Source: Nitrosococcus oceani ATCC 19707 (lineage in GTDB: Bacteria > Pseudomonadota > Gammaproteobacteria > Nitrosococcales > Nitrosococcaceae). Taken from it: a stretch of DNA of 32,000 nucleotides. Position numbers and translations under genes: made by a program. Position 1 is the stretch's first letter, and each line of letters begins with the position of its first letter. This document shows, one piece after another, positions 15,036 through 32,000 of this stretch. Below the pieces are notes generated by a model. That model saw nothing but the letters and a program-made list of their open reading frames with translations. It was not told the DNA's origin and made no database searches. The stretch lies in NCBI RefSeq assembly GCF_000012805.1, contig NC_007484.1:30001-62000 (forward strand), written 5' to 3'.

Positions 15036-15111
15036 GGGCCTATAGCTCAGTCGGTAGAGCAGGGGACTCATAATCCCTTGGTCGCAGGTTCGAGTCCTGC
15101 TGGGCCCACCA
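15036..15111 (+). tRNA. tRNA with anticodon CAU: elongator Met or lysidine-modified Ile2 (ileX-like)
   Basis: A hand-folded 76-nt cloverleaf: acceptor GGGCCTA/TGGGCCC, D arm GCTC/GAGC, anticodon arm GGGGA-CTCATAA-TCCCT, T arm GCAGG-TTCGAGT-CCTGC, and an encoded CCA. The anticodon stem and variable loop resemble E. coli ileX, which also lies near rpoD. The identity cannot be settled by eye. Confidence 0.9.
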
Positions 15112-15523
15112 AATAAACCAAAGGCTTGCATAAATTTAATCTTTTTCTTTTGTGTTATGGGACACTGTTGGGGCATTCAGTAGTAGCAACTCCCTTAATA
15201 ATCCACTCTCGTTTTCCTCTCTAGCATTCTTTCTTTCTCTTTGAAAATAACCCTTTTGGGATGAAAGTGTCCCATGAGTGTCCATTTTTATTTTACACCC
15301 ACTAAATTTTATTAAAAAAACAAATATATACATATATAAGCCAGGGGATATGATGTCCTTTGTTGTTTTTTGTGGTGGTTTGTTATTAGGGTATAGCCAT
15401 TAATTTACAGGGTAAAAATAATATCCTTAAGGTTTTAACAACTTGGTATGGAGTTGTCCGGACTATGGTTGCATATCTGTTCCTGCCAGATAGGATCTCC
15501 TCTGTAGCTTAGAGAGGGTAATC

Positions 15524-16606
15524 ATCGCTACCATCGAAACACGCCACACTAAAGAGGGTAAAGTTGCCTATCGGGTCAAAATCCGATTAAAGGGACATCC
15601 TCCCCAGACAGCTACTTTCGAACGTAAGTCCGACGCTAAGCGTTGGACCCAACAAACCGAAGCTGCTATCCGTGAAGGCCGTCACTTTAAGACGGTAAAG
15701 GCTACACGCCATACACTCGGCGAACTCATTGACCGTTATATTCGAGACATTCTCCCCCGCAAGCCTAAAAGCCAGGTTAAGCAAACGCTACAACTGAGGT
15801 GGTGGAAAGAGCAGCTCGGCCATCTTCTGCTTGCAGATGTCACCCTGGCATTGATTGCGGAGTGCCGAGACAAGCTGGCAAGCGGAAATATTACCCGGTA
15901 CAACCAAAAAAACTCGGGAGGTCAGCGCAGCCCGGGGAGCGTCAATCGTTATCTGGCCGCGTTGAGTCATACCTTTACCATCGCGGTTAAAGAGTGGGGT
16001 TGGCTAGAAGACAGCCCTATGGGGCGTATTTCCAAACTGAAGGAGCCAAGAGGACGGGTGCGTTTCCTTTCGGACAGTGAGAGGGAAAGGCTGCTGAAAG
16101 CCTGCCGAGGGAGTTCTAATTCCTTTCTTTATCCGGCCGTGGTATTGGCCTTATCCACTGGTGCAAGGCGGATGGAGATCATGGCGTTGCGCTGGCGCAA
16201 TGTAGACTTGCAGCGAGGTCTAATCAGCCTTCATGAAACAAAAAACGGAGAGCGTCGAGCTTTACCTTTAGCAGGCCATGCTTTGGATTGCGTTAAACGC
16301 TTAAGCAAAGTACGCCAAATTGACACTGATTTGCTGTTTCCCAGCAACCACAATCCCCAGCAGCCCCTCGATTTGCGAAAGCCATGGGAAATTGCTTTAA
16401 AGCAAGCCGGCATTGAAGATTTTCGCTGGCATGACTTACGCCATAGTGCCGCTTCTTATCTTGCCATGAATGGGGCCACACTCGCTGAAATTGCCGAGGT
16501 ATTGGGCCATAAGACCCTCCAGATGGTAAAGCGTTATGCACATTTTTCGGAAACTCACACCGCCCGCGTAGTCGCAAGCATGAATGCCAAGATATTTGGG
16601 GAGTAA
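15524..16606 (+). CDS. int: Tyrosine site-specific integrase (phage integrase family) with no canonical start codon
   Basis: The frame is open from 15494. The homologous N-terminus (I)ATIETRHTKEGKVAYRVKIRLKGHP begins at ATC 15524, downstream of AGAGAGGG. The first ATG/GTG/TTG in frame is TTG 15851, which would delete the arm-binding and SAM-like domain. The catalytic residues are present: TGARRMEI, HDLRHSAAS, GHKTLQMVKRYAH. Confidence 0.85.
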   Translation: MATIETRHTKEGKVAYRVKIRLKGHPPQTATFERKSDAKRWTQQTEAAIREGRHFKTVKATRHTLGELIDRYIRDILPRKPKSQVKQTLQLRWWKEQLGHLLLADVTLALIAECRDKLASGNITRYNQKNSGGQRSPGSVNRYLAALSHTFTIAVKEWGWLEDSPMGRISKLKEPRGRVRFLSDSERERLLKACRGSSNSFLYPAVVLALSTGARRMEIMALRWRNVDLQRGLISLHETKNGERRALPLAGHALDCVKRLSKVRQIDTDLLFPSNHNPQQPLDLRKPWEIALKQAGIEDFRWHDLRHSAASYLAMNGATLAEIAEVLGHKTLQMVKRYAHFSETHTARVVASMNAKIFGE

Positions 16607-16608
16607 GA

Positions 16609-17358
16609 ATGTCAAATTCAATTGGGAGGCCACTACCAAACTGCCGCCATCTTCGATCCTTACCTCTCCCGAGCATAGCTCAGTATTGGGCGATCGAAAC
16701 AGGAACCAATCCTAGCGATAACCTTCGTGATCTGGCCTTCGCCGTACATTGTTGGCTATTGTGTGAGAAGGAATTTAGATCAGCTTATCGTAAATCAGGT
16801 GATCCTAAATTTCTTGAGGCCGTTCTTCCCAATAACAAAGAAAAGTTGGAACAGATCGGAGAAGCCTTAAAAAAGCTTTACCTGGATAATATCCTTGATG
16901 CGCAGATTGAGCAAACTCTTGCTGCAATTACAATTTATGCCGAGGATATAAAGGATTGGTGCCAACGCAATCACCGGCCGTTGCCCCGGTTCTGGTTTCC
17001 CCTTTCTGAGGCTGCAGCTAGCCATGAGTCCGGTTCATATCAGCCATCACCGAAAAAGTTGATAGCCGAAGCAGAGGAAGTTGGTAAAAATCTCTCAGGG
17101 GTACTAAAAGCAAGCGATAAAATGCCCGTGGATCCTCCCAGGAAGCGATCATTAATTATTCCAAGCACTGCAAATCAATATAATACTAAAGATAAAAAAT
17201 CTTACCTGAATATCGAACTTGTGAGGCGAACATACGATCACCTATGTGAAACTCAAAAAGATAGGCATTTAGCTCCCAAGGAAGAATTGGCATTTGTTAT
17301 TAATAAGCCCGCTCACTTTGATACTGACAAAATTATAGAGCTATATCTAAATTTATAG
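16609..17358 (+). CDS. Hypothetical protein (AT-rich island cargo); 3' end replaced by the IS630 insertion
   Basis: The ATG lies 2 nt after the int stop. 249 aa with no motif I recognise. The last 7 codons (ELYLNL-stop) lie inside the IS left end. Confidence 0.6.
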   Translation: MSNSIGRPLPNCRHLRSLPLPSIAQYWAIETGTNPSDNLRDLAFAVHCWLLCEKEFRSAYRKSGDPKFLEAVLPNNKEKLEQIGEALKKLYLDNILDAQIEQTLAAITIYAEDIKDWCQRNHRPLPRFWFPLSEAAASHESGSYQPSPKKLIAEAEEVGKNLSGVLKASDKMPVDPPRKRSLIIPSTANQYNTKDKKSYLNIELVRRTYDHLCETQKDRHLAPKEELAFVINKPAHFDTDKIIELYLNL

Positions 17359-17395
17359 ATATTGAGACATTTGTGTTATATTCATTCATACTGTT

Positions 17396-17731
17396 GTGAC
17401 GAGATGTTCAATTGATTTGCGCAAACGAGTAATCGATTTTGTAAGGGGCGGTGGAAGCAAGGCGGAAGCGGCCCGGAGATTTCAGGTAGGCCGCGCGAGC
17501 ATTTATCGCTGGTTGTCGCAGGATGATGCGCTGTGTTACGAGCGTCCCGGCCCTCGCCGTTCACACAAGCTGGACTGGGAGGCTTTACGGGTCCATGTGG
17601 AAGACAAGGCTGATCTCACCTATAAAGAACGCGCCCGGCATTTTGGCGTTTCGTATTACTGTATTTGGCATGCGATGCACAAAATGGGGTTAACCCGTAA
17701 AAAAAATGACGGGGTACACGCAGCGCTGTAA
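17396..17731 (+). CDS. IS630-family transposase, N-terminal HTH part (orfA)
   Basis: 111 aa with a GTG start. RKRVIDFVRGGGSKAEAARRFQVGRASIYRW and TYKERARHFGVSYYCIWHAMHKMGLTRKK are the paired HTH motifs of IS630/Tc1 transposases. Confidence 0.85.
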   Translation: MTRCSIDLRKRVIDFVRGGGSKAEAARRFQVGRASIYRWLSQDDALCYERPGPRRSHKLDWEALRVHVEDKADLTYKERARHFGVSYYCIWHAMHKMGLTRKKNDGVHAAL

Positions 17732-18230
17732 TATGAAAAGAAAGAGCTTTCTTCGTCTTCGTGAACGCTATCGCCGCCGCGGCAAAAGATTTGTCTATCT
17801 TGATGAAAGCGGTTTTGAGCCGGAGGTTTCCCGTCGTTACGCTTACGCTCCAAAGGGGCGGCGTGTTTATGGTCTGATCTCCGGTCATCGCAGACCGCGA
17901 ACCTCTTTATTGGCCGCCCGTATGGATGAAGGCTTTGAAGCGCCGTTTCTATTTGAGGGAACCTGTAACACGGCTGTGTTCAATGCATGGCTGGAAAAAG
18001 AGCTTTGCCCCTTGCTCAACAGCAACCACATTGTCATCATGGATAATGCTCCGTTCCACAAAGCCGTTTCTTCACGTGAAATCATCAAAAAAACAGGGGC
18101 GGGAATTTTATTCCTCCCCCCTTATTCCCCTGACTTTAACCCCATAGAAAAAGACTTCGGAAATATCAAAAAAATCAGAGAATACAACGAACACGAAACC
18201 CTTGAGAATATCGTTGCAGCGTATCAGTAA
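17706..18230 (+). CDS. IS630-family transposase, DDE catalytic part (orfB)
   Basis: 174 aa. FVYLDESGF, IVIMDNAPFHK and ILFLPPYSPDFNPIEKDF match the DDE blocks of IS630. It overlaps orfA at the A8 tract 17699-17706. Confidence 0.85.
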   Translation: MTGYTQRCNMKRKSFLRLRERYRRRGKRFVYLDESGFEPEVSRRYAYAPKGRRVYGLISGHRRPRTSLLAARMDEGFEAPFLFEGTCNTAVFNAWLEKELCPLLNSNHIVIMDNAPFHKAVSSREIIKKTGAGILFLPPYSPDFNPIEKDFGNIKKIREYNEHETLENIVAAYQ

Positions 18231-18247
18231 TTATAGATTTAGCTATA

Positions 18248-18394
18248 GATAAGCGATTTGGTAGTGTTGCTGAGCAGCTACGTGAAGTAAATCATTTTGA
18301 ATGGAAAACCAAGGCGGGAAGTATAAGCAGAATGAGTCTAAAATCCATCCAAGAGTGTATAAGAAAGTACAAACGAGAACTTAATATATATTGA
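18248..18394 (+). pseudogene. Displaced 3' fragment of the cargo gene 16609-17337
   Basis: Removing 17338-18247 (the IS plus one TA) joins ...DKII to DKRFGSVAEQLREVNHFEWKTKAGSISRMSLKSIQECIRKYKRELNIY-stop in frame. I translated this codon by codon. Confidence 0.5.
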
Positions 18395-18775
18395 ATATAC
18401 TTTCTTAATTTTTACCCCATCCCTCTCGCCTGAATTAAGCATCTTCATATAAACCGATTCAGGTAAATTTTTATCCATTCCGCAGCAGAATTGGGGTTAC
18501 TGAGTAGAGAATGTTAAAACCCCTTTGATGTCCTACTATGAATCTTCATACGCCTACTTTTCCGGATTATCGATAATCAGGAATTTTAATGCACTAAATT
18601 TAACCATTAGTTTGATGTAAAAAGAAATTCCTTTGTTCTCCTGATTATAAAATTTCCCTCTGGTTCACTCTTAATTGGGGAATTGAGCTGCTTTAATAAC
18701 GCTCCATAACAAGCGGCATCTCGCCGCACAAATAAGGCAATTAGGATGTGAATAAAGCAATCGGGAGATGAATAA

Positions 18776-19048
18776 TTGACTATCAGTAACAAAGTCCGCC
18801 ACCTTCTCACAGTGGGACAATTCAGCGAGAAGAATCCGGCCTTCCCTGAAGCCAGTTTGCGTTATCTAATTTTTAGGTCGGAAGACCGGGAGAACAGCAA
18901 AGGGGAAGTCATCCCAGGCAATGGATTCTCTCCAGCGATTGTTCGTGTTGGAAGGAAGGTGCTTATCGATGAGGAGAAATTTTTCGAGTGCATTGATGAG
19001 CAAAACGGGCAATCTACGATGAGACAGAAAGGGGGTGGAGATGTATGA
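18776..19048 (+). CDS. Excisionase/AlpA-like small DNA-binding protein
   Basis: 90 aa with a TTG start about 10 nt after GGGAG. LLTVGQFSEKNPAF.EASLRYLIF ... AIVRVGRKVLIDEEKFFECI resembles the Xis/HTH_17 layout. Its position ahead of the replication genes fits a satellite or ICE regulatory module. Confidence 0.5.
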   Translation: MTISNKVRHLLTVGQFSEKNPAFPEASLRYLIFRSEDRENSKGEVIPGNGFSPAIVRVGRKVLIDEEKFFECIDEQNGQSTMRQKGGGDV

Positions 19049-19229
19049 CTTGGCCCCTTTTCCAAAAGATCACCTGGAGCGTGTTTGTTGCAGTAGCTGC
19101 GGCATATCCTCCCAGCGGCTTGCCTCCGTCAATGGCGTGTGGCTATGCCATCAATGTTTGGGTTGGATCAGGAGATATGAGCATATTCAAAAAGCCCGTG
19201 CCTGGTTCCAGGAGGCGGACATTGAGTAA
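19041..19229 (+). CDS. Small Zn-ribbon protein (CxxC...CxxC)
   Basis: The ATG at 19041 follows GGGGGTGGAG and overlaps the upstream stop (ATGTATGA). The protein has CSSC and CHQC pairs. Function unknown. Confidence 0.4.
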   Translation: MYDLAPFPKDHLERVCCSSCGISSQRLASVNGVWLCHQCLGWIRRYEHIQKARAWFQEADIE

Positions 19230-19437
19230 GTTGCCCACTTTTGCGAAGGTCCCTATCAAGGTGGTAGGGACATCTCAACTCACTCTACGAGAATTCCGCG
19301 TCCTGGTAGCCTTGTACGCTTTTGCCGATCAAAAGGGGCGGTGCTGGCCCTCCCGGCAGCGGCTGAGTGAACTGACCGGAATCCGCCCCGAGCATATTTC
19401 CCGCGCCACCAGCGCCCTGAAAAAAAAAGGTGGTTGA
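19177..19437 (+). CDS. Winged-helix/HTH protein; 5' half of a split replication-associated gene
   Basis: LTLREFRVLVALYAFADQKGRCWPSRQRLSELTGIRPEHISRATSALKKK is a typical wHTH. An alternative start is TTG 19222, 6 nt after GGAGG. The ORF terminates just after the A9 tract at 19420-19428. Confidence 0.65.
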   Translation: MSIFKKPVPGSRRRTLSKLPTFAKVPIKVVGTSQLTLREFRVLVALYAFADQKGRCWPSRQRLSELTGIRPEHISRATSALKKKGG

Positions 19438-20033
19438 AAAAGACAGGCAATGGGGGACGGTCCCAATCTAGCCGCTATCAATTGCCGCTTGCGCAGGATA
19501 AAGCACTTCCCCTGGCGCCTGAAAACGGTGCCCACAGGGGCGGGGTTTCCCCGCCAAAACGGTGCCAGGCGCGGCAATTAAACGGTGCTGCCCAAGGCAC
19601 GGGCATAGAACAGACCAGGGAACAGACCAATTTATATACGGCACCGGCCGATGCCGCAGGCACGAAAAGCGGATTGAAAGGAGATGATTTTCCCCGTCAA
19701 GAAACAGCGCCGAGGGCGGTTGAGGCTTATCTGACAAAACAGGGCAAGCGGCTCCAAGGACAGGCGCTGCGGCGCTTTGAGATTTTTTGGCAGGTCTTCG
19801 ACTACCGCCGGGGCAAAGCCGAGGCGGCTGATGCCTGGTGGAAGCTCGAGCCCATGGACCCTGGGCTTCTCAAGGCTATTATTGCCGGGGCCCAGCGGGA
19901 AGCGTCCGAGCGCCCCGCCAAGCTCGAAAAGGGGTTGACCCCGAAGATGGCCCAAGGCTGGCTTTCCGGGCGGCGCTGGGAAGATGCACCGCCTCGGCGT
20001 AGTGCCCCCACCAAACCGAAGCTAGTGGTCTAG
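19434..20033 (+). CDS. 3' half of the split replication-associated gene (hypothetical)
   Basis: This is the -1 frame relative to 19177-19437. It continues (R)WLKKTGNGGRSQSSRYQL, the expected continuation of this wHTH family. The C-terminus reads FEIFWQVFDYRRGKAEAADAWWKL...GWLSGRRWED. Confidence 0.55.
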   Translation: MKKTGNGGRSQSSRYQLPLAQDKALPLAPENGAHRGGVSPPKRCQARQLNGAAQGTGIEQTREQTNLYTAPADAAGTKSGLKGDDFPRQETAPRAVEAYLTKQGKRLQGQALRRFEIFWQVFDYRRGKAEAADAWWKLEPMDPGLLKAIIAGAQREASERPAKLEKGLTPKMAQGWLSGRRWEDAPPRRSAPTKPKLVV

Positions 20034-20042
20034 GAGGTAGCT

Positions 20043-21848
20043 ATGGACAAAACATTTTCCGATTTTGGGATTGATGTGCCGCCCGCCGCTTCCGGGCAAC
20101 TCAGTCTCACCTGCCCCCAGTGCTCCGCTCAACGCAAGAAAAAACGTGCCAAGTGCTTAAGCGTCAATGTCGAGAAAGGGGCGTGGATATGCCACCATTG
20201 TAGCTGGCGAGGGGGGCTTTCCCAGCGGGAGCAGTCCAATCGCACTCTGTACTGGCGACGCCCCGATTACCGACAGCCGGCGCCCTTTTCCCCGGGAGCC
20301 CTGCCTGAAGATATCCAGCGCTGGTTTGCCAAACGGGGGATTACCCCCGCGGTCCTTGAGCGCAATCATATCGCGACCAAAAAGGTGTATATGCCCCAGC
20401 TGGAGAGGTGGGTGAGCGCGATCGCCTTTCCTTACTACCGGGGCGAGACGCTCATCAACGCCAAGTACCGGGATGGGAGGAAACACTTCCGCCTGGAGGC
20501 CGGGGCCGAGCGCATTTTGTATGGACTTAACGACTTGGAGCAGACTACCCTCATTGTGGAAGGGGAGATGGATAAACTGGCGTTAGAGGTAGCCGGTTTT
20601 CGCAATGTGGTCAGCGTCCCCGATGGCGCCCCCCCACCCCAGGCTAAGGATTATGCCCGCAAATTTGAGTTTCTGCAGGCGGATGAAGAAGCGCTTAAGA
20701 CGGTCAAGACGTGGGTAATCGCAGTCGACAATGACGCACCCGGGCAGTATTTGGCCGAGGAACTCTCCCGTCGCTTCGGGCGAGAAAAATGTAAGCGGGT
20801 CCTCTGGCCTGAAGCGTGCAAGGATGCCAATGAGGTGTTGCTGAAGCGGGGACCTGAGGTGCTCACCGATTGCATCAAAAATGCCCAGCCTTATCCTCTC
20901 GCCGGGGTGTTGACGGTCAGCCACCTCAGCGAAGACATCGATTTTCTCTATACCCATGGGCTCAAGCGGGGGATGTCAACCGGCTGGCCCTCTGTGGATA
21001 TATGTTACACCGTCAAGCCTGGGGAGTTGACGGTGGTGACGGGTGTCCCCAACAGTGGGAAATCCAATTGGCTGGACTGCTTAGCCCTGAATCTTGCCCA
21101 GCAGGGCTGGCGCTTTGGTGTCTTCAGCCCCGAGAACCAGCCAGTGGGCCACCATATGGCGCGGATGATAGAAAAGTGGGCCGGTAAGCCGTTCAATAAA
21201 GGGTCTATTGCCCGACTGAGCCGGTCCACGCTGGCGCAGGGAAAGGACTGGGTGCATGAGCACTTTTATTGGATTCTCCCAGAGGATGACCAGGATTGGA
21301 CCGTCGAGCACGTTCTGGACCGTGCCAGGGCGCTGGTGCTGCGGTATGGGATTAAGGGGCTCCTGCTCGACCCCTGGAATGAGTTTGAGCATCTGCGTGC
21401 GCCCAATGTCACGGAGACGGAGTATATCTCGTTGGTTTTAAAGCGGGTGCGGCAATTCGCCCGTTATTACCAGGTCCATGTGTGGATAGTGGCCCATCCG
21501 GCAAAGCTCTTCCGGGGCAAGAACGATCAATATCCCGTGCCCACGCTCTATGACATCTCAGGCTCGGCTAACTGGCGCAATAAGGCCGATAATGGCCTCG
21601 TGATTTGGCGCGATCTTGGCGACCCTAAAAAAGATTTGGTGGAGATTCATATCCAAAAGATTCGCTTTCGGGAGGTGGGAAGATTGGGCGCAGTGCGGCT
21701 GCGTTTTGACCCTGTGACGGCAGTGTACCGGGAGCCTGAACCCGATGATGAAGCGGCCTTCCCCCCTGCGGATGGAGCTGATAAGGCGGATGAGCAAGCG
21801 TATCTGGACAGTCTGTACGCCGAGTATGAGGCCCAGGGCGGAAAATAG
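20043..21848 (+). CDS. Bifunctional primase-helicase (T7 gp4/Twinkle-like)
   Basis: 601 aa with AGGAGG upstream. N-terminal Zn finger CPQC...CHHC, Toprim (LIVEGEMDKLAL, AVDNDAPG), then a DnaB/RecA-type NTPase (GVPNSGKSNW Walker A, LLLDPWNE Walker B). Confidence 0.85.
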   Translation: MDKTFSDFGIDVPPAASGQLSLTCPQCSAQRKKKRAKCLSVNVEKGAWICHHCSWRGGLSQREQSNRTLYWRRPDYRQPAPFSPGALPEDIQRWFAKRGITPAVLERNHIATKKVYMPQLERWVSAIAFPYYRGETLINAKYRDGRKHFRLEAGAERILYGLNDLEQTTLIVEGEMDKLALEVAGFRNVVSVPDGAPPPQAKDYARKFEFLQADEEALKTVKTWVIAVDNDAPGQYLAEELSRRFGREKCKRVLWPEACKDANEVLLKRGPEVLTDCIKNAQPYPLAGVLTVSHLSEDIDFLYTHGLKRGMSTGWPSVDICYTVKPGELTVVTGVPNSGKSNWLDCLALNLAQQGWRFGVFSPENQPVGHHMARMIEKWAGKPFNKGSIARLSRSTLAQGKDWVHEHFYWILPEDDQDWTVEHVLDRARALVLRYGIKGLLLDPWNEFEHLRAPNVTETEYISLVLKRVRQFARYYQVHVWIVAHPAKLFRGKNDQYPVPTLYDISGSANWRNKADNGLVIWRDLGDPKKDLVEIHIQKIRFREVGRLGAVRLRFDPVTAVYREPEPDDEAAFPPADGADKADEQAYLDSLYAEYEAQGGK

Positions 21849-21908
21849 GCCGGGGAGATAACGGTAAAAAAGCCCAGCAAGCGTGCGTCCCTGCCGGAAG
21901 GGCCTCGG

Positions 21909-22556
21909 TTAATCGTGTCGCTTAGGCCCGTGGGCGGGTTCCCCGGCGGCCTTTTCCTGCTCCTGTTGCAGGGCAATGCGGCCCATGGGCGTGCTGAGCG
22001 GGGCGCCTGAGATTTCTTCGAGCAAATGGGAGAGTTCGCCTTGGACCTTCACCTCCCGTTGCTCTTTAAACATGCCCAATTGCTTATCGAGTTGCTCCAA
22101 GGCATCGAGCTTATTCCAGAGCTTGATTTTGTAAACGTAAAGGGGCGCCGTCTTCTTTTCGTCTTTCATCACGACCACATCCACCGCGGCAATGGCCGCC
22201 GCGATATGCTTGGGCAGGGCGTCCATGGGTTTGAGCCGCCCCTGTCCATCAAACAAGGCGCGGATGTCTGAAAACCCGACCTGGGCCAACTCTTTCAGAA
22301 CCTGGACCTCTTTAACGTCCGCCTCGGCTTCGGCCGCCTGGCGCTTGGATTGCAGGTAGGCCGCTACCCCCGGGTTTCGAAGAAGCCGTGAGCTTTGGAC
22401 TTTCGCCGTGCTCAAGGCCGCCCGGGGGAAAGCTTGCCGGTAGCAGGCCAGGGCATTGCCCCGCACCTTCTCGGGGCCGGCCCGGTACAAATCCGCGAAC
22501 ACTTGCTGACCTGGCGTTAAGCCATCTTCATTACGGGGATATCGGGCTTGGCGCAT
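21909..22556 (-). CDS. terS: Phage terminase small subunit (P27/Terminase_2-like)
   Basis: LTPGQQVFADLY, NALACYRQAF, AKVQSSRLLRNPGVAAYL and VLKELAQVGFSD match TerS blocks. The start is set at ATG 22556, 6 nt after GAGGAG. The track start at 22706 adds a non-homologous extension. Confidence 0.75.
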   Translation of the reverse strand: MRQARYPRNEDGLTPGQQVFADLYRAGPEKVRGNALACYRQAFPRAALSTAKVQSSRLLRNPGVAAYLQSKRQAAEAEADVKEVQVLKELAQVGFSDIRALFDGQGRLKPMDALPKHIAAAIAAVDVVVMKDEKKTAPLYVYKIKLWNKLDALEQLDKQLGMFKEQREVKVQGELSHLLEEISGAPLSTPMGRIALQQEQEKAAGEPAHGPKRHD

Positions 22557-22829
22557 TTTCATCTCCTCACTCCGTACGCAACGGTGCCGCTGCTCCACCG
22601 CCCGGCGGGTTGGTTCATCGCCTGCCCATGATGGAAGCCACTTGCCTTTGCCACCCAACCATCCCCACAACCTGGGTTCCAGCGACCCACGTGCTAAAGC
22701 ATACATGACCTTTATTCATGTATCACTGGTTAAATATAAATAATTTTTCATCATTTGGCCGAAGCAAAGCCAACGGCTTTCAAGTGCTCATTTTCTATGC
22801 CTTTCTAGGCAAAGGAGCTTTTCAAGGAG

Positions 22830-23064
22830 ATGGTGATACCATCAAGATATGCGATAGCCGATGTGATGGGGAGAATGAGAAGTCAATCGTCGTCCATTCT
22901 GCGAAAAAAGTTTGACGGGCTCTCAAAAGTTCTATTGGAAGGAAAACATTGTCTGGTCGCCGGGCTACTTCGTCAGCAGCGTAGGGATTGATGAGAATAC
23001 CATCAAACGTTACGTAGAACGTCAGGGATGCCGGGATTCGGGCCAATTCCGTGAGGAGTTGTAA
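22830..23064 (+). pseudogene. IS200/IS605-family tnpA (Y1 transposase) relic; C-terminal portion with one frameshift
   Basis: Frame 0 reads IPSRYAIADVMGRMRSQSSSILRKKF. Frame 1 reads YWKENIVWSPGYFVSSVGIDENTIKRYVERQ-stop at 23064. Together these match the C-terminal half of IS200 TnpA. The N-terminal HUH region is absent. Confidence 0.6.
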
Positions 23065-23065
23065 T

Positions 23066-23112
23066 CGCCGCGAAGCGGCGGCAAAGCCATAGGACCGCGG
23101 GTTTACCCGTGG
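23066..23112 (+). repeat. Two short hairpins directly 3' of the tnpA relic
   Basis: cgccgc-gaa-gcggcg (23066-23080) has a 6-bp stem. ccgcggg-ttta-cccgtgg (23095-23112) has a 7-bp stem with one G-T pair. This is consistent with an IS200/IS605 subterminal hairpin or a REP-like element. Confidence 0.4.
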
Positions 23113-23558
23113 GTATCTATGTTCTTTATCGACTTTTATAGCTTGATACTTTAAAGATCCTGCCGTCCGAGCAAGGCTTTCAGTGTTTCTAAAGCCTCCT
23201 CAACACAATTTTTACGATCAATTTAGTTACTTGGCTAATGGGCTACATCACCAACTCCTCAAGCCTTCACTTTTCCCGATGGGCTATCAACTTACCCTGG
23301 TGAATGAGTCCATCTAATTATCAAGAACTGGTATAGAATCGGTACTTTTTCCTCAGTGCTGTGCCGAGATTTCCCAAGAATTGACTACCCATCAACGCGC
23401 CATTAGGCTCCTATTCTTCGCTCAGCCGCAAAAGCTGTCTCAATACAGAATTTTTAGAATAACAGTAGGTTGATCTTGCCAGGGCATTTTACACATTGAT
23501 GTTCTGTGGGTGCGGCCGATAAATCCGATAAAACGGATATTGAGCAAAAGAAACGACC

Positions 23559-27892
<4,334 letters not shown>

Positions 27893-27898
27893 CCACGA

Positions 27899-29566
27899 AT
27901 GAACACGAATAAACACGAAATAGAGGCATTGATCCAGCGAGGCGAGAGTGTTTCTCTAGAGTTCAAAAGTGACCTGAAGCGCCTGCCGGATCGGGAGCTT
28001 GTGGCGGCTGTGGTTTCTTTAGCAAATACGGACGGCGGCGATCTATTGCTCGGCGTGGAGGATGACGGCACGGTTACCGGTTTGCATGCAAGTCACCTGA
28101 ATGTTTTAGGTATCCCGCCTCTCATTGCAAATAAGACGAATCCTGCTATTTCGGTTCGCGTGGAAAAGTGCGAGTCAACGGGAAAGTCCATTGCCCGGAT
28201 CAGGGTGCCGAAGTCCCAGCAACTGGTATCCACTTCCGACGGCTTTTTGGTACGCCGACGCCTGAAGTTCGATGGAACACCGGAAGCAGTACCTTTCTAT
28301 CCCCACGAATTTATTCAACGCCAGTCGTCCCTGGGCCTCGTCGATCCCTCAGCCATGGTACTTGAGGAAGTAGACTCGGGTCAGCTCGATCCGCTTCAGC
28401 GCCTGCGTATCCGTAGTGCCATAAAAAAGTATGGTGGGGAGCAATCCCTGCTTGCTCTAGCTGATGACGAACTGGACGGCGCACTTGGGCTTTGTCGTGA
28501 ATCGAATGGCGCTAGACACCCCACCATGACCGGGTTACTGGTATTGGGAACGGAAGAACTCCTGCGAGCCCATGTGCCCGCCTATGAGGTCGCCTTTCAG
28601 GTGCTTCAGAGAACCGATGTCAAGGTCAACGAGTTCTTTCGGAAACCGCTTCTGGAAACCTTTGAAGAAGTGGACCCCCTCTTCAAGGTCCGGGTTGAGG
28701 AAGAAGAAATTCAGGTTGGCCTTTTCCGGGTACCTGTACCCAATTATGATCGCCGCGCCTTTCGTGAGGCTTTTGTGAATGCGCTGGTTCACCGTGATTT
28801 CAGCAGGCTCGGTGCGGTGCATGTCAAAATCACTGATGATGGTCTCACTATCAGCAACCCGGGTGGTTTCGTCGAGGGGGTGAGACTGGATAACCTGCTC
28901 GTAGTCGATCCTCGTTCCCGTAATCCCCTCCTCGCCGATGTGATTAAGCGGATCGGCCTGGCCGAGCGCACCGGGCGTGGCATCGACCGCATTTACGAGG
29001 GCATGCTCCGCTACGGACGCCCCGCGCCTGATTACTCAATGTCCGATGAATTCACGGTTTCAGTACAGATGGTGAATGCTGCTGCCGATCTCGATTTCCT
29101 CAAGATGGTGGTCGAGCAGGAGGATAAGCTTGGCAACATGCCGATTGACTCCCTGATCATACTCTCCCGCCTTCGGGAAGAGCGACGACTAACCACTGCG
29201 GACCTGGCCCCATCCGTCCAGAAATCAGAAACCAACGTGAGGATAACCCTGGAGAAGCTGGTTGAAACCGGATTTCTGGAGCCGCATGGCACCGGCAGGG
29301 GGCGGACCTATACCCTCAGCGCTGCCCTGTACCGTAAGGCAGGAAAGAAATCGGAATACATCCGCCAGGCCGGTTTTGCGCCCATCCAGCAAGAGCAAAT
29401 GGTGCTGAAATACATTGATGCGCACGGTTCCATCAAACGAGCAGATGCCGCTGATTTATGCCGGATCAGCCCATTTCAAGCCACGCGTTTGCTTAAACGG
29501 ATGGAAAAGAATGACTTAGTAAAGCCTGTTGGGCAGGGAAGAGGGACGCGTTATGAGCGAAAATAG
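27899..29566 (+). CDS. Schlafen/AlbA_2 + HATPase_c_4 + tandem wHTH protein (COG2865-type, RecG-like putative regulator)
   Basis: 555 aa. The N-terminus ESVSLEFKSDL...ELVAAVVSLANTDGGDLLLGVEDDGTVTGL is the AlbA_2/Schlafen box. FREAFVNALVHRDFS...ISNPGGF...SRNPLLADVIKRIGLAERTGRGIDRI is HATPase_c_4. Two C-terminal wHTH copies each end in GxGRGxxY. Confidence 0.8.
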   Translation: MNTNKHEIEALIQRGESVSLEFKSDLKRLPDRELVAAVVSLANTDGGDLLLGVEDDGTVTGLHASHLNVLGIPPLIANKTNPAISVRVEKCESTGKSIARIRVPKSQQLVSTSDGFLVRRRLKFDGTPEAVPFYPHEFIQRQSSLGLVDPSAMVLEEVDSGQLDPLQRLRIRSAIKKYGGEQSLLALADDELDGALGLCRESNGARHPTMTGLLVLGTEELLRAHVPAYEVAFQVLQRTDVKVNEFFRKPLLETFEEVDPLFKVRVEEEEIQVGLFRVPVPNYDRRAFREAFVNALVHRDFSRLGAVHVKITDDGLTISNPGGFVEGVRLDNLLVVDPRSRNPLLADVIKRIGLAERTGRGIDRIYEGMLRYGRPAPDYSMSDEFTVSVQMVNAAADLDFLKMVVEQEDKLGNMPIDSLIILSRLREERRLTTADLAPSVQKSETNVRITLEKLVETGFLEPHGTGRGRTYTLSAALYRKAGKKSEYIRQAGFAPIQQEQMVLKYIDAHGSIKRADAADLCRISPFQATRLLKRMEKNDLVKPVGQGRGTRYERK

Positions 29567-29575
29567 CGAAAATAC

Positions 29576-29626
29576 GAGCGATTGCGTGCGCCGCTCGCAA
29601 AATACGAGCGGCGCACGCAATCGCTC
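29576..29626. repeat. Perfect 22-bp inverted repeat with a 7-nt loop; possible terminator or relic recombination site
   Basis: The left arm is gagcgattgcgtgcgccgctcg (29576-29597). The loop is caaaata. The right arm is cgagcggcgcacgcaatcgctc (29605-29626). It begins 10 nt after the stop of 27899-29566. No U-tract follows. Confidence 0.85.
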
Positions 29627-29695
29627 ATATTTATGCTCGGTGAGAATATTTTATGCGTAGGCCGGCGATGGATGTGGCCATGCCGCCAGCCTTGC

Positions 29696-29992
29696 ATGGA
29701 TTTTAATCGGCTTGTAGCCGCCATCCCGCAGGCCCATGACGAATTGGCCAAGCAAGCCTGCCAGGCGGTCTATGGAGAAAAGGTACTGTCGGAACTGACT
29801 GCCCGACTGAGCGACATTCCGCCTATCGGCATTCTACTCTGCACCGACAAGAATCACGCCCTGGCTGAGTATGCCCGGGCAGGCATGGACAACAGCCTTT
29901 TTGTCTCCAAGTACCTGCTGGAACTGCCAAAGAAAGAAGAAATGCAGGCATTCATCAAGAGACAGGTAAAAGAAATTGGAGATGTTGGATGA
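29696..29992 (+). pseudogene. Internally deleted DUF1016/YhcG-family (PDDEXK nuclease) relic
   Basis: MDFNRLVAAIPQAHDELAKQA.QAV and YGEKVLSELTARLS resemble the YhcG N-terminal domain. IGILLCTDKNHALAEYA...FVSKYLLELPKKEEM resembles the extreme C-terminus. The nuclease core between them is missing. The stop overlaps the pglXI ATG (ATGA). Confidence 0.5.
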
Positions 29993-32000
29993 AACCAAAA
30001 CAAGAAAGCCTGTTCCAGACCAGACTGGTTCCCGCCGAAGCGGGCTCCGGCAGGCTATTCGACGAAGAACTGGTGGCTGGTTCGGATGGGCCTGTAAAGT
30101 GTCTTGGTCTTGAGTTTGAAAACGACGAAGCCCGTCGCACCCACTTTACCGAGGAGCTGCGCAAGAAGCTGCAGGACCCGGAGTTCCGCAAGATCGAAGG
30201 TTTTCCCATCGGCAGCGACGAGGACATCCTGAACCTGAGTGATCCGCCATATTACACCGCCTGCCCGAACCCATGGATCGCCGACTTCATCACCGAGTGG
30301 GAGGCGCAAAAGCCGGAACAGCCCGAAGGCTATCACTATCACCGTGAGCCTTTTGCCGCCGATGTCAGCGAAGGAAAAAACGACCCGATTTACAATGCCC
30401 ACTCTTATCATACCAAAGTGCCGCACAAGGCAATCATGCGGTACATCCTCCACTACACGGAGCCAGGAGACATCGTTTTTGACGGCTTCTGTGGTACTGG
30501 CATGACAGGAGTGGCCGCGCAGATGTGTGGCGACCGTGAAGTGGTCATGTCGCTCGGCTACCAGTTGAAGCCGGACGGGACCATTTTGCAGGAAGAGATG
30601 GACGAAGATGGCAAAAAGGTTTGGCGACCATTTTCAAAACTGGGCGTCCGCAGAGCCGTACTGAACGACCTTTCACCGGCGGCGACGTTCCTTGCGCATA
30701 ACTACAACCTTTATGTTGATACGGCATCATTTGAAAATGAAGCTAAGAAATTCATCAAAATAATCGAGCGAGAATGTGGATGGATGTATGAAACAACTCA
30801 TACAGACGGGGTGACCAAGGCGAAAGTGAACTACACAATCTGGTCAGATGTATTTGTCTGTCCTGATTGCACTAATGAGATTGTATTCTGGGATGTTGCA
30901 GTCGACAAAGAATCTGAGACAGTAAACGATGAGTTTCAATGTCCTAATTGCCAGACCAGCTTAACAAAGCGCAATATGGACCGTGCTTGGGTTACCACTT
31001 ATGACCGATTCTTGGGAGAGACGATTCGGCAGGCCAAGCAGATACCTGCTTTGATCAATTATAGCGTTGGTGGGAAACGATATGAGAAGAAACCTGACGA
31101 GGGTGACTTCGCAATTTTGGAGAAGATAGAAAACGAAGGATTAGACGGATGGTTTCCCATCAATCGCATGATTGAGGGGCATGAGTCTAGGAGAAATGAT
31201 CCGGTTGGTATCACGCACACTCATCACTTTTATTCACCTCGAAATCTATCAGTGATGTCGAAGATTTTGGATTTGGCTGACAAATCTGAATTTACTCCCT
31301 TCAAATTCGGTTTTCTGAATACCTCTTGGCACGCCACGCAGATGAGGCAATACAACCCAGGTGGCGGGCACAGACCTAGAACGGGTACTTTGTATATGCC
31401 TTCCATCCATAGTGAAGGTAACATGATTCCCGTTTACAAGAAAAAGCTGAACCAGCTTGTTCAGTTTTATAAAGTCAAGTCTCATCGAAATAGGGTTGCC
31501 ATTATTCAGACCATGTCGTCTACGGTGGAATCATCTATCGAAGCGGGTTTGGACTATGTATTCATTGATCCGCCTTTCGGCGCAAATCTGAACTACTCAG
31601 AACTAAATTCAATATGGGAGGCATGGCTTAAAGTAAGTACGAATAATGCCGAGGAGGCAATTGAGAATAGGTCACAGAACAAGGGGATTGATGAATACCG
31701 ATCTCTTATGACTCAGTGCTTTCGACAGGCATACAACCAATTGAAACCTGGGCGCTGGATGACTGTAGAGTTTTCTAATACAAGCGCTGGTATTTGGAAC
31801 AATATTCAGACGGCAATATCAGACGCTGGATTTATTGTCGCGAATGTCTCTGTTCTAAATAAAAAGCAGGGGTCGATAATGGCTTACACTACCCCCACTG
31901 CTGTCAAACAAGACCTCGTTATCTCAGCCTACAAACCCAACGGCGGTTTTGAAGAGCGCTTTCAGAAAGAGGCGCAAACCGAAGAAGGTGTGTGGGATTT
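29989..32000 (+). CDS. pglXI: BREX type 3 DNA methyltransferase PglXI (N6_N4_Mtase family); 3' end beyond the window
   Basis: The frame is open from ATG 29989 to the window end, translated fully by hand. LSDPPYYTACPNPW, SAM motif I (IVFDGFCGTGMTG), a Zn-ribbon in the variable region (CPDC...CPNC) and catalytic motif IV (VFIDPPFG). Confidence 0.8.
   Translation, partial: MKPKQESLFQTRLVPAEAGSGRLFDEELVAGSDGPVKCLGLEFENDEARRTHFTEELRKKLQDPEFRKIEGFPIGSDEDILNLSDPPYYTACPNPWIADFITEWEAQKPEQPEGYHYHREPFAADVSEGKNDPIYNAHSYHTKVPHKAIMRYILHYTEPGDIVFDGFCGTGMTGVAAQMCGDREVVMSLGYQLKPDGTILQEEMDEDGKKVWRPFSKLGVRRAVLNDLSPAATFLAHNYNLYVDTASFENEAKKFIKIIERECGWMYETTHTDGVTKAKVNYTIWSDVFVCPDCTNEIVFWDVAVDKESETVNDEFQCPNCQTSLTKRNMDRAWVTTYDRFLGETIRQAKQIPALINYSVGGKRYEKKPDEGDFAILEKIENEGLDGWFPINRMIEGHESRRNDPVGITHTHHFYSPRNLSVMSKILDLADKSEFTPFKFGFLNTSWHATQMRQYNPGGGHRPRTGTLYMPSIHSEGNMIPVYKKKLNQLVQFYKVKSHRNRVAIIQTMSSTVESSIEAGLDYVFIDPPFGANLNYSELNSIWEAWLKVSTNNAEEAIENRSQNKGIDEYRSLMTQCFRQAYNQLKPGRWMTVEFSNTSAGIWNNIQTAISDAGFIVANVSVLNKKQGSIMAYTTPTAVKQDLVISAYKPNGGFEERFQKEAQTEEGVWD

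What the first reader, a model, noticed from the sequence alone, without database searches (positions are those of the whole stretch)
27899..29566. Schlafen/AlbA_2-HATPase_c_4-wHTH gene embedded between brxC and pglXI: candidate BREX-associated sensor, regulator or stand-alone defence gene
- A 555-aa protein starts 7 nt after the brxC stop, on the same strand and with the same high-GC composition as brxC.
- It occupies a slot that is empty in the canonical type 3 layout.
- Other BREX loci are known to host embedded extra genes, for example the WYL regulator BrxR, the GmrSD-type BrxU, and PARIS in enterobacterial BREX.
- As far as I know, COG2865/Schlafen-box proteins have no established role in BREX.
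- The architecture is a nucleic-acid-binding Schlafen box, a GHKL-like ATPase remnant and two wHTH domains. This fits either an ATP-dependent transcriptional switch for the methyltransferase operon or an independent effector.
Basis: partly seen in the sequence, partly recalled or inferred. Interest (0 to 1): 0.7.

Follow-up and report, generated by a model that had tools for sequence, protein, structure and literature searches.

The report
Schlafen-ATPase gene embedded in BREX
This is an intact gene for a Schlafen-type RNA-cutting enzyme fused to an ATP switch and two DNA-binding heads, wedged into a BREX anti-phage locus; the pairing was reported in 2026, but its last DNA-binding head appears matched to a DNA repeat array placed right after its own stop codon.

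Summary
ORF 27899-29566 (+) encodes 555 aa: SLFN_AlbA_2, HATPase_c_4 and two winged-helix (wHTH) domains. It starts 6 nt after the brxC stop, in a type 3 BREX locus on a tRNA-Met island of Nitrosococcus oceani.

- The ATPase is not a remnant. Its N-box (E290, N294) and lid are invariant in 127 relatives, as is the Schlafen nuclease motif (E16, E21, K23).
- The BREX link is real but published: two 2026 papers report Schlafen-ATPase-DNA-binding proteins tightly linked to BREX.

Of 75 species-level relatives with upstream sequence, 38 sit 25 nt or less after brxC, in both type 1 and type 3 BREX. About 30 show no intact brxC upstream, in mixed neighbourhoods.

A feature I did not find in the papers searched:
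- 3-5 palindromic half-sites, phased about 10 bp apart, start 2-6 nt after the stop codon.
- The half-site sequence tracks only the last 34 residues (recognition helix and wing of the second wHTH).
- The two are swapped together as one cassette.

Best reading: an ATP-gated Schlafen RNase acting as a BREX accessory abortive-infection effector, whose C-terminal head binds its own 3' DNA array. No activity was tested here.

The parts
23559..24056 (+). brxF (BREX type 3 P-loop protein)
   Evidence: NCBIfam BREX_3_BrxF 7.7e-60; PADLOC BrxF 5e-68
24071..27892 (+). brxC (type 3, DUF6079)
   Evidence: Pfam DUF6079 1932 bits; PADLOC BrxC-PglY 2134 bits
27893..27898 (+). 6-nt spacer CCACGA. It is part of the leader AACCACGA-ATG that is shared by orthologues in type 1 and type 3 BREX contexts.
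27899..29566 (+). The gene in question: Schlafen nuclease - middle domain - GHKL ATPase - wHTH1 - wHTH2, 555 aa
   Evidence: 100% identical to a Nitrosococcus oceani ATCC 19707 protein. AF2 model pLDDT 86.6. Foldseek hit to 3LMM at 2.3e-31.
27899..28303 (+). Schlafen (AlbA_2) nuclease domain, residues 1-135. The motif E16-x4-E21-x-K23 lies at 27944-27967; the S-L-A-N43 box and G46-G47 follow.
   Evidence: Pfam PF04326. E16, E21, K23, D25, N43, G46, G47 are invariant in 56 and in 127 relatives. Foldseek hits to SLFN13/12/14/11/5 N-domains.
28751..29098 (+). GHKL (Bergerat) ATPase, residues about 285-400. N-box E290/N294/H298-R299-D300 at 28766-28798; G322; lid R341-D347; G359-x-G361.
   Evidence: Pfam PF13749. 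Invariance. The E-x3-N spacing matches RzAgo E314/N318, described in bioRxiv 10.64898/2026.05.29.728809.
29141..29338 (+). wHTH1, residues about 415-480. Conserved; does not track the downstream DNA type.
29381..29563 (+). wHTH2, residues 495-555 (DIP2311-like_C). The variable cassette is residues 522-555 (29462-29563): recognition helix 525-537 plus the wing.
29567..29660 (.). Array of palindromic half-sites starting just after the stop codon. AAATACGAGCG at 29570-29580 (+) and 29600-29610 (+); AAATATGAGCG at 29622-29632 (-). In this genome the array forms a 33-nt-arm inverted repeat, 29565-29597 / 29605-29637.
   Evidence: (RNA MFE -55.7 kcal/mol, z -9.07)
29672..29992 (+). Decayed YhcG-type PDDEXK nuclease remnant; only N- and C-terminal fragments are left.
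   Evidence: Pfam YhcG_C 3.1e-10; PADLOC PDC-S02 1e-16. Gene call in L001. Full-length YhcG sits in the same slot in L133 and L137.
29989..32000 (+). pglXI (BREX type 3 methyltransferase), 5' part; runs off the window
   Evidence: PADLOC PglXI 1036 bits; Pfam N6_N4_Mtase; 947 aa in L001

Best explanation
The gene belongs to the BREX-associated Schlafen-GHKL ATPase-wHTH family ('Schlatpase' plus HTH).

Most likely mechanism:
- It is co-transcribed and probably translationally coupled with brxC.
- The product is an ATP-gated, oligomerisation-dependent Schlafen RNase, most likely a tRNase.
- It acts as an accessory, back-up abortive-infection layer of the BREX island. It is not a core BREX component.
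- The last 34 residues (recognition helix plus wing of wHTH2) read an array of 3-5 half-sites. The array is phased about 10 bp apart and begins 2-6 nt after the gene's own stop codon.
- I infer that this protein-DNA pair keeps the enzyme DNA-bound next to its gene, either silenced or positioned. In BREX loci it sits directly in front of pglX/pglXI.

Shown here: the domains, invariant catalytic and ATP-binding motifs, conserved synteny, the array, and co-variation and co-swapping of the array with the reader head.

Inferred: RNase activity, ATP gating, DNA binding, and the biological role.
For: Effector competence:
- E16/E21/K23, N43 and G46-G47 are invariant in relatives at 53-88% identity.
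- The fold matches the SLFN13/12/14/11/5 nuclease domains and full-length 3LMM.
- Homologous domains cleave tRNA in RorSlfn5, Cash and RzAgo (PMC13462974).

ATP switch:
- The GHKL N-box E290/N294, the lid and the G-boxes are invariant, and this is the most conserved domain.
- In RzAgo, ATP binding by the same Pfam domain drives the tetramerisation that builds the active Schlafen site.

BREX link:
- 38 of 75 evaluable species-level relatives start 25 nt or less after brxC: 26 after type 1 BrxC and 12 after type 3 BrxC. These two BrxC types share only weak N-terminal similarity, and the methyltransferases are of different families.
- 7 more have brxC within 0.7-5.3 kb.
- Five further loci keep a brxC 3' remnant directly upstream (L017, L030, L036, L063, L089; read by eye).
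- A second Schlafen-GHKL clade (Fic-like_C tail) occupies the same slot in 17 of 75 sampled type 3 loci.
- The association is also published.

Cis array:
- 51 of 67 non-redundant loci have 2 or more palindromes within 140 nt of the stop, against 12% of loci when their sequences are shuffled. Paired bases are 20.2 against 10.7, Wilcoxon p 3.6e-7.
- Half-sites are phased at about 2, 12, 22, 32 and 42 nt after the stop.
- The array type tracks residues 522-555 only: ARI 0.46, against about 0 for the Slfn, GHKL and wHTH1 domains. Partial Mantel r 0.30, p 0.001.
- L012 and L013 are 97.8% identical over gene nt 1-1570. They then differ from codon about 523 to past the array, and match again beyond it.
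- The half-site AAATACGAGCG is kept between proteins only about 63-67% identical to the window protein, including Chlamydiae.
Against: - No biochemical or genetic test of this architecture was found in the papers searched. In Perez Taboada et al., only 2 of 7 tested enterobacterial pSlfns protected. Both protective ones had other architectures, and the architectures of the five that did not protect were not checked.
- About 30 of 75 relatives show no intact brxC upstream in mixed neighbourhoods, including housekeeping genes and transposases. BREX is therefore not required.
- The same slot also hosts unrelated genes: 23S_rRNA_IVP, YhcG, HATPase_c and SfsA. Part of the association may simply reflect an insertion hot spot.
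- Co-variation of the reader head and the array could come from physical linkage alone, since they are adjacent.
- A binding array placed 3' of the ORF has no established precedent that I can cite.
- The samples are the best 80 pattern-selected loci, not a census.
Confidence: 0.5

Rival explanations
1. Stand-alone defence gene that is only parked in a BREX insertion hot spot. It works by itself (sensor plus effector in one chain) and has no functional coupling to BrxC or PglX.
For: - About 30 of 75 relatives show no intact brxC upstream. Some sit near Wadjet, SbcCD-like, type I/III RM, DISARM, Dsr1 or MADS genes; others sit near housekeeping genes.
- The brxC|pglXI slot holds unrelated cargo in many type 3 loci: IVP in about 14, YhcG in 2, HATPase_c in 2, SfsA in 1.
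- The cis array travels with the gene outside BREX.
- Single-chain pSlfns can defend on their own.
Against: - The gene start is fixed 9-13 nt after the brxC stop in two BREX types whose BrxC proteins share only weak similarity, with a shared leader AACCACGA.
- Two divergent Schlafen-GHKL clades converge on the same slot.
- There is no own promoter space in BREX contexts, so expression is tied to brxC.
Confidence: 0.25
2. Primarily a transcription factor: an ATP-dependent switch whose wHTH binds the array in front of pglXI and gates read-through or initiation of the methyltransferase-helicase-PglZ genes. This would be analogous in role to BrxR.
For: - Two wHTH domains are present.
- The array lies between the gene and pglX/pglXI in BREX loci.
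- In the window the array forms a terminator-like hairpin on both strands.
- The 3LMM family is named 'transcriptional regulator DIP2311-like' in Pfam.
Against: - The nuclease motif is invariant across 127 relatives, which a pure regulator would not need.
- The array is present with the same architecture where no pglX follows (L051, L052, L059, L069, L080).
- No copies of the half-site occur at the brxF or brxA promoter regions or elsewhere in 10-kb flanks: 7 stray hits in about 900 kb.
- The Fic-like_C clade in the same slot has no array.
Confidence: 0.15
3. Selfish addiction or mobile cassette. The RNase is held harmless only while its cognate DNA array is present. Loss of the locus releases it and kills the cell, which stabilises the island.
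For: - Gene, leader and array move as one unit between type 1 BREX, type 3 BREX and other contexts.
- The reader head and array are exchanged together.
- The locus lies on an integrase-bearing tRNA-Met island.
Against: - This is entirely inferential. No recombinase or attC-like signature was seen.
- No close homologue occurs in 72,556 plasmids at E 1e-30 or better.
- The cassette is more simply explained as specificity diversification.
Confidence: 0.1

Closest known systems
BREX-associated Schlafen RNase - minimal histidine kinase - wHTH proteins (PMC12839542, NAR 2026; cluster 2 of PMC13462974, Nat Commun 2026)
   Same: Same domain order, embedded in or adjacent to BREX core genes, and proposed there as back-up suicidal endoRNases. 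The window gene fits that description in every tested respect.
   Different: Those papers give a catalogue only. I found no mention of the fixed position after brxC, of the two clades, or of the 3' half-site array and reader-head cassette. No experiments are reported.
SLFN-pAgo RzAgo and its 'Schlatpase' supradomain (bioRxiv 10.64898/2026.05.29.728809)
   Same: PF04326 plus PF13749 at the N-terminus, with the E-x4-(D/E)-x-K motif, a SAFAN-like box and a GHKL E-x3-N motif. PADLOC pAgo and Aga models hit residues 155-396. That work shows ATP-driven tetramerisation and tRNA cleavage.
   Different: The sensor there is an Argonaute core with guide RNA. Here it is two wHTH domains and, by inference, a fixed chromosomal DNA array.
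RorSlfn5 and other pSlfns (Perez Taboada et al., bioRxiv 10.1101/2025.07.24.666596; Nat Microbiol 2026)
   Same: Schlafen nuclease effector fused to a variable C-terminal sensor. The HisKinase-HTH fusion is listed as 19.2% of pSlfns. 69.6% of pSlfns lie within 10 kb of defence genes.
   Different: The characterised member uses an Ig-like domain that senses a T5 tail chaperone. The HisKinase-HTH class was not characterised mechanistically.
DIP2311 of Corynebacterium diphtheriae (PDB 3LMM)
   Same: Full-length sequence and fold homologue: phmmer 1.5e-19 over residues 36-552; Foldseek 2.3e-31, TM 0.51.
   Different: About 20% identity. It is a structural-genomics entry without known function. Its genomic context was not examined.
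BrxR (WYL-wHTH regulator of type 1 BREX)
   Same: A DNA-binding protein encoded within BREX loci that recognises inverted repeats.
   Different: It has no WYL domain here. BrxR lies upstream of brxA and binds its own promoter, and it carries no nuclease or ATPase.
Human SLFN11/13/14
   Same: The nuclease fold and catalytic motif; antiviral tRNA or rRNA cleavage.
   Different: The eukaryotic proteins have a two-lobed Schlafen core and a C-terminal helicase. The bacterial domain corresponds to one lobe.

Membership tests
Prokaryotic Schlafen nuclease (PF04326, pSlfn) | Profile match above the curated threshold | tested here: met
   53.8 bits against a cutoff of 25.3, residues 16-119
Prokaryotic Schlafen nuclease (PF04326, pSlfn) | Catalytic E-x4-(E/D)-x-K motif and Schlafen box (SAFAN-like) followed by a Gly-rich core | tested here: met
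   E16-SVSL-E21-F-K23, S40-L-A-N43 and G46-G47. E16, E21, K23, N43, G46 and G47 are invariant in 127 relatives.
Prokaryotic Schlafen nuclease (PF04326, pSlfn) | Schlafen nuclease fold | tested here: met
   AF2 pLDDT about 90 for residues 11-130. Foldseek hits at E of about 1e-4 to 2e-3 to SLFN13 5yd0, SLFN12 7lre, SLFN14 9nyy, SLFN11 7fex and SLFN5 7cux.
Prokaryotic Schlafen nuclease (PF04326, pSlfn) | Metal-dependent tRNA/RNA cleavage | not testable with these tools
   Needs biochemistry
Schlatpase supradomain (SLFN + GHKL PF13749) | PF13749 domain C-terminal to PF04326 in one chain | tested here: met
   69.8 bits, residues 306-387
Schlatpase supradomain (SLFN + GHKL PF13749) | Intact Bergerat ATP site (N-box Glu and Asn, G-boxes, lid) | tested here: met
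   E290, N294, H298, R299, G322, R341, D347, G359 and G361 are invariant. The equivalence to RzAgo E314/N318 rests on motif spacing only.
Schlatpase supradomain (SLFN + GHKL PF13749) | ATP-driven dimer or tetramer assembly that activates the nuclease | not testable with these tools
   Shown only for RzAgo
BREX type 3 locus | brxF, brxC (DUF6079), pglXI, brxHII, pglZ and brxA in one cluster | tested here: inconclusive
   brxF, brxC and pglXI are identified in the window. A SNF2-type helicase (BrxHII position) and PglZ are identified in L001 downstream. The ORF after PglZ is cut by the locus end and has no family hit, so brxA itself was not confirmed.
BREX core component | Present in all or nearly all loci of the type | tested here: not met
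   brxC is followed directly by pglXI in 35 of 75 sampled type 3 loci. Only 1 of 75 carries an intact close orthologue of this gene, and one more keeps a remnant.
BREX-associated Schlafen-HisK-wHTH accessory genes (PMC12839542) | [quoted passage not shown] | tested here: met
BrxR-type BREX regulators | wHTH-WYL-WCX architecture, encoded upstream of brxA | tested here: not met
   No WYL hit. The position is after brxC.
Type III toxin-antitoxin-like RNA repeats / structured 3' UTR | Selection on RNA pairing of the sense strand (G-U tolerated, A-C not) | tested here: not met
   Mismatches in the stems are 38 G-T type against 38 A-C type. Sense versus antisense MFE gives p 0.125.

The most novel reading that the evidence does not exclude
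The last 34 residues (the reader head of wHTH2) and the phased half-site array just after the stop codon form a co-diversifying protein-DNA lock. The lock holds a Schlafen tRNase inactive on the chromosome beside its own gene, so the array acts as a DNA 'antitoxin' or tether. Release would license ATP-driven assembly and tRNA cleavage. Possible release triggers are BREX-sensed infection, phage attack on host DNA, or competition by phage factors. Swapping the head and array together resets the lock's specificity, either to escape phage decoys or to avoid cross-talk between paralogues.
Probability: 0.25. Interest if true: 0.8.

Novelty: new member of a known kind. Interest (0 to 1): 0.5.

Why it matters
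BREX still lacks an agreed killing or exclusion mechanism, and accessory effectors may explain part of its phenotypes. Schlafen-GHKL-HTH proteins are among the commonest prokaryotic Schlafen architectures: HisKinase-HTH makes up 19.2% of pSlfns, and I found 11,799 50%-identity clusters related to this protein. I found no report of what activates them.

If the C-terminal head really reads the array next to its own gene, the system becomes directly testable with defined DNA. Suitable experiments are EMSA, head swaps and array deletion. It would also add a new way of keeping an abortive-infection nuclease silent. If it does not, this is one more catalogued BREX accessory gene.

Tried and rejected
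- **RNA-level reading of the 3' repeats** (structured 3' UTR, or a type III-TA-like RNA antitoxin). Not supported. G-T and A-C mismatches in the stems are 38 against 38, and sense versus antisense MFE gives p 0.125.
- **Plain intrinsic terminator.** The window hairpin is terminator-like on both strands. Most orthologous arrays lack U-tracts.
- **attC-like recombination site.** The R'/R'' consensus did not fit by eye, so I dropped it.
- **Operator copies at BREX promoters.** None found: the locus-specific 9-mers occur 7 times outside the 300 nt after the stop, in about 900 kb. The half-site count in the window is at chance level apart from the three array copies.
- **Array as a general property of Schlafen-GHKL-HTH genes.** Rejected. 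The Fic-like_C clade has none.
- **Sigma-70 promoter scan of 22600-30400.** 0 sites against 3.5 expected, which is uninformative. No inverted repeats were found upstream of brxF.
- **First AF2 model from a shallow alignment.** Poor (pLDDT 65). It was replaced by a model from a 127-sequence alignment (pLDDT 86.6).
- **Plasmid and phage collections.** No plasmid match at E 1e-30 or better. Phage-labelled contigs gave only weak partial GHKL/HTH matches.
- **Conserved neighbours in the non-BREX loci.** None found; neighbours do not cluster.
Full report
**1. The observation**

ORF 27899-29566 (+) is real: ATG start, 555 aa. It begins 6 nt after the TAA of brxC at 27890-27892.

Pfam finds four domain hits:
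- SLFN_AlbA_2, residues 16-119, 53.8 bits.
- HATPase_c_4, residues 306-387, 69.8 bits.
- Two winged-helix regions, 421-476 and 500-553. The second matches DIP2311-like_C.

The flanking genes are BrxF, a DUF6079-type BrxC and PglXI. Beyond the window the same contig continues in this order: PglXI, a 290-aa HATPase_c protein, a 124-aa ORF, a PIN protein, the SNF2-type helicase BrxHII, PglZ, and a 255-aa ORF cut by the locus end.

The protein is 100% identical to one from Nitrosococcus oceani ATCC 19707. The window holds gpmI, gpsA, tsaD, dnaG, rpoD and tRNA-Met (15036-15111). These are followed by an integrase, IS630 fragments, a primase-helicase and a small terminase, and then BREX. GC rises from 0.40-0.50 to 0.53-0.62. 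BREX therefore sits on a horizontally acquired island at tRNA-Met.

**2. The protein**

A 127-sequence alignment gave an AlphaFold2 model with mean pLDDT 86.6. Foldseek places it with two groups:
- Full-length DIP2311 (3LMM), E 2.3e-31, TM 0.51.
- The nuclease domains of SLFN13, 12, 14, 11 and 5, through the N-terminal domain.

phmmer also finds 3LMM over residues 36-552.

In 56 orthologue-clade sequences, and again in 127 sequences at 53-88% identity, the following are invariant or nearly so:
- The Schlafen motif E16-x4-E21-x-K23, plus D25, N43, G46 and G47.
- The GHKL N-box R289-E290...N294...H298-R299. F288 and D300 are invariant in the 56-sequence set and at least 90% conserved in the 127-sequence set.
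- G322, the lid R341-D347, and G359-x-G361.

The GHKL region is the most conserved part of the protein (mean 0.81). wHTH2 is the least conserved (0.58).

The E-x3-N spacing is that of RzAgo E314/N318. In RzAgo, ATP binding by this domain drives a tetramer that builds the active Schlafen site, which then cleaves tRNA. The Pfam model simply covers only the C-terminal half of the fold.

**3. What is already known**

[quoted passage not shown] It calls them back-up suicidal effectors.
- PMC13462974 describes a cluster of Schlafen-ATPase-DNA-binding proteins tightly associated with BREX.
- Perez Taboada et al. list HisKinase-HTH fusions as 19.2% of prokaryotic Schlafens. They show defence for two other architectures.
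- Kuzmenko et al. name the SLFN+GHKL pair 'Schlatpase'.

I found no experiment on the Schlatpase-HTH architecture, nor on its role in BREX.

**4. Context of relatives**

A scan of one genome per GTDB species returned 80 loci at 53-87% identity. They come from at least 15 phyla, including Chlamydiae, Chlorobi, Spirochaetes, Chloroflexi and Synergistota.

I classified neighbours by tblastn with reference BREX proteins. Among the 75 loci with usable upstream sequence:
- 38 have brxC ending 25 nt or less before the start codon: 26 of type 1 and 12 of type 3.
- 7 more have brxC 0.7-5.3 kb upstream.
- pglX or pglXI usually follows within 100-450 nt.

All six distinct orthologue loci looked up individually showed the same order, in type 1 (brxA-brxB-brxC-X-pglX...pglZ-brxL) and in type 3. 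The short leader AACCACGA-ATG is shared between type 1 and type 3 contexts. Five 'no brxC' loci still carry a brxC 3' remnant directly upstream (L017, L030, L036, L063, L089).

The remaining roughly 30 loci are heterogeneous, with no recurring neighbour. Some lie next to Wadjet, SbcCD-like, RM, DISARM, Dsr1 or MADS genes. Others lie next to transposases or housekeeping genes.

**5. Occupancy of the slot in type 3 BREX**

A metagenome scan with a BrxC C-terminal alignment gave 80 loci, of which 75 had downstream sequence. The brxC|pglXI slot contained:

| Slot content | Loci (of 75) |
|---|---|
| Empty (brxC followed directly by pglXI) | 35 |
| 128-156-aa 23S_rRNA_IVP four-helix protein as sole occupant | about 14 |
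| Second Schlafen clade: SLFN_AlbA_2-HATPase_c_4-Fic-like_C (22-31% identical to the target) | 17 |
| Close orthologue of the target | 1, plus 1 remnant |
| Full-length YhcG | 2 |
| HATPase_c protein | 2 |
| SfsA | 1 |

Three of the loci counted under other rows (L136, L161, L165) carry an IVP gene as well. The slot is thus an accessory-gene hot spot. Schlafen-GHKL genes of two clades fill about a quarter of the sampled loci. Both samples are the best 80 pattern-selected hits, not a census.

**6. The 3' array**

In the window the stop codon is followed by a 33-nt-arm inverted repeat (29565-29637). Its RNA MFE is -55.7 kcal/mol, z -9.07. It contains AAATACGAGCG at 29570 and 29600 (+), and a one-mismatch copy at 29622 (-).

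Across orthologues, the 50-60 nt after the stop carry 3-5 half-sites in alternating orientation, starting 2-6 nt after the stop. Typical positions are about 2, 12, 22, 32 and 42, which is one helical turn apart.
- 51 of 67 non-redundant loci have 2 or more palindromes, against 12% of loci when their sequences are shuffled (p 3.6e-7).
- Mismatches in the arms are strand-symmetric: 38 G-T type against 38 A-C type. This argues for DNA-level sites rather than RNA-level selection.
- The arrays occur in BREX and in non-BREX loci alike, and are essentially absent from the 10-kb flanks.
- The Fic-like_C clade has none.

**7. Co-variation with the reader head**

The half-site sequence falls into types that match the sequence of residues 522-555:

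| Type | Half-site | Residues 522-555 |
|---|---|---|
| A | ATACGAGCG | ISPFQATRLLK...GQGKGTxYER |
| B | TATACACG | PQAY(H/R)LLK...GERRHAxYTR |
| C | TTATGAGCC | TKDQAAKLL...HGERRGSYYD |
| D | TATGCGCC | DQAYKLL...IGDRKGAxYERK |
| E | ATATGCTC | DRNQAYRLL...GEHKGAVYER |

- wHTH1 and the N-terminal domains do not track the type. ARI is 0.46 for residues 522-555, and between -0.03 and -0.05 for the Slfn, GHKL and wHTH1 domains.
- The partial Mantel correlation of array similarity with wHTH2 identity, given N-terminal identity, is r 0.30, p 0.001.
- L012 (Kiritimatiellia) and L013 (Verrucomicrobia) are 97.8% identical over nt 1-1570 of the gene. They lose homology from codon about 523 to beyond the array, and regain it in the pglXI leader. 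The head and the array are therefore exchanged as one cassette.
- In the model, residues 525-537 form the third (recognition) helix, and 541-554 form the wing of a confident wHTH.
- Type A sites persist between proteins only about 63-67% identical to the window protein. This argues for selection on the motif.

Physical linkage alone could still produce part of this signal.

**8. Interpretation**

The invariant nuclease and ATP sites argue for an active, ATP-gated Schlafen RNase, by analogy with RzAgo, RorSlfn5 and Cash. Three observations argue for a functional tie to BREX expression: the fixed position after brxC in two BREX types, the absence of space for its own promoter, and the convergence of two clades on the same slot. 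Against this, a third of relatives lack BREX, which shows the protein can act alone.

The head and array pair is best read as a cognate protein-DNA interaction. I cannot decide whether it sequesters the enzyme, positions it, or gates read-through into pglX.

- A pure regulator reading is weakened by the invariant nuclease, and by arrays in loci without pglX.
- A pure hot-spot reading is weakened by the exact junction and the shared leader.

**9. Verdict**

The finding is real and correctly located, and its family and BREX association are already published. This instance is a new member of a known kind. The 3' array and swappable reader head are a lead I did not find in the literature searched. 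They give a concrete experimental handle.

Noticed in passing
window 29672-29992 (+): Decayed YhcG/DUF1016 PDDEXK nuclease gene between the Schlafen gene and pglXI (PADLOC candidate system PDC-S02). Only N- and C-terminal fragments are left. Full-length YhcG fills the same slot in L133 and L137, and sits between pglX and pglZ in L008.
   Followed up: partly
window 15036-22706: BREX lies on an island next to tRNA-Met (15036-15111). The island carries a tyrosine integrase (15851-16606), IS630 transposase fragments (17396-18230), an HTH_36 protein, a Toprim/DnaB_C primase-helicase (20043-21848) and a small terminase (21909-22706, minus strand). This is a satellite- or PICI-like module, with a GC jump to 0.54-0.62.
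   Followed up: partly
L001 14615-16420 (downstream of the window, same genome): A second accessory slot between pglXI and brxHII holds a trio: a 290-aa HATPase_c protein, a 124-aa ORF and a 198-aa PIN protein. All three recur at 70-93% identity in L096 and L145; in L147 the ORF and the PIN protein are kept but only a short fragment of the HATPase_c gene remains. In other loci this slot holds a 435-aa Schlafen-GHKL protein without HTH (L005) or AAA_15/21-type ATPases (L011).
   Followed up: partly
L092, L096, L104, L111, L119 and about 10 more (brxC|pglXI slot): A 128-156-aa 23S_rRNA_IVP (PF05635) four-helix-bundle protein is the commonest single occupant of the brxC|pglXI slot in the sampled type 3 BREX loci.
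   Followed up: partly
L094, L100, L102, L127, L129, L147, L157, L161, L169 and others: A distinct clade, SLFN_AlbA_2-HATPase_c_4-Fic-like_C (500-620 aa, 22-31% identical to the target), sits directly after type 3 brxC in 17 of 75 loci. It has no downstream repeat array.
   Followed up: partly
L011, L013, L017, L025, L035, L042, L070 (just 5' of the pglX/pglXI start): A conserved leader made of 2-6 direct repeats of (A)TTC(C)GTG followed by GGTTCAAAAGGA precedes the methyltransferase start codon in both type 1 and type 3 loci. It may be a shared promoter, RBS or second binding element. It is absent from the window, where the YhcG remnant lies instead.
   Followed up: no
L012 vs L013: A Kiritimatiellia MAG and a Verrucomicrobia MAG carry genes whose first 1570 nt are 97.8% identical (residues 1-490 identical). 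This indicates very recent transfer across lineages of the PVC group. The whole type 3 cassette is also 72-92% identical to that of N. oceani, apart from PglXI (55-76%).
   Followed up: partly
window 27899-29566, residues 155-396: PADLOC models of pAgo-associated proteins (Aga_SIR2-PNTD1-PNTD2, 4.7e-14) and of pAgo itself (4.6e-9) hit the middle domain plus the GHKL region. This is consistent with the Schlatpase module being shared with SLFN-pAgos and APAZ partners.
   Followed up: no
window 22600-30400: No sigma-70-like promoter match was found anywhere across brxF-brxC-Schlafen-pglXI (0 found, 3.5 expected from shuffles).
   Followed up: no
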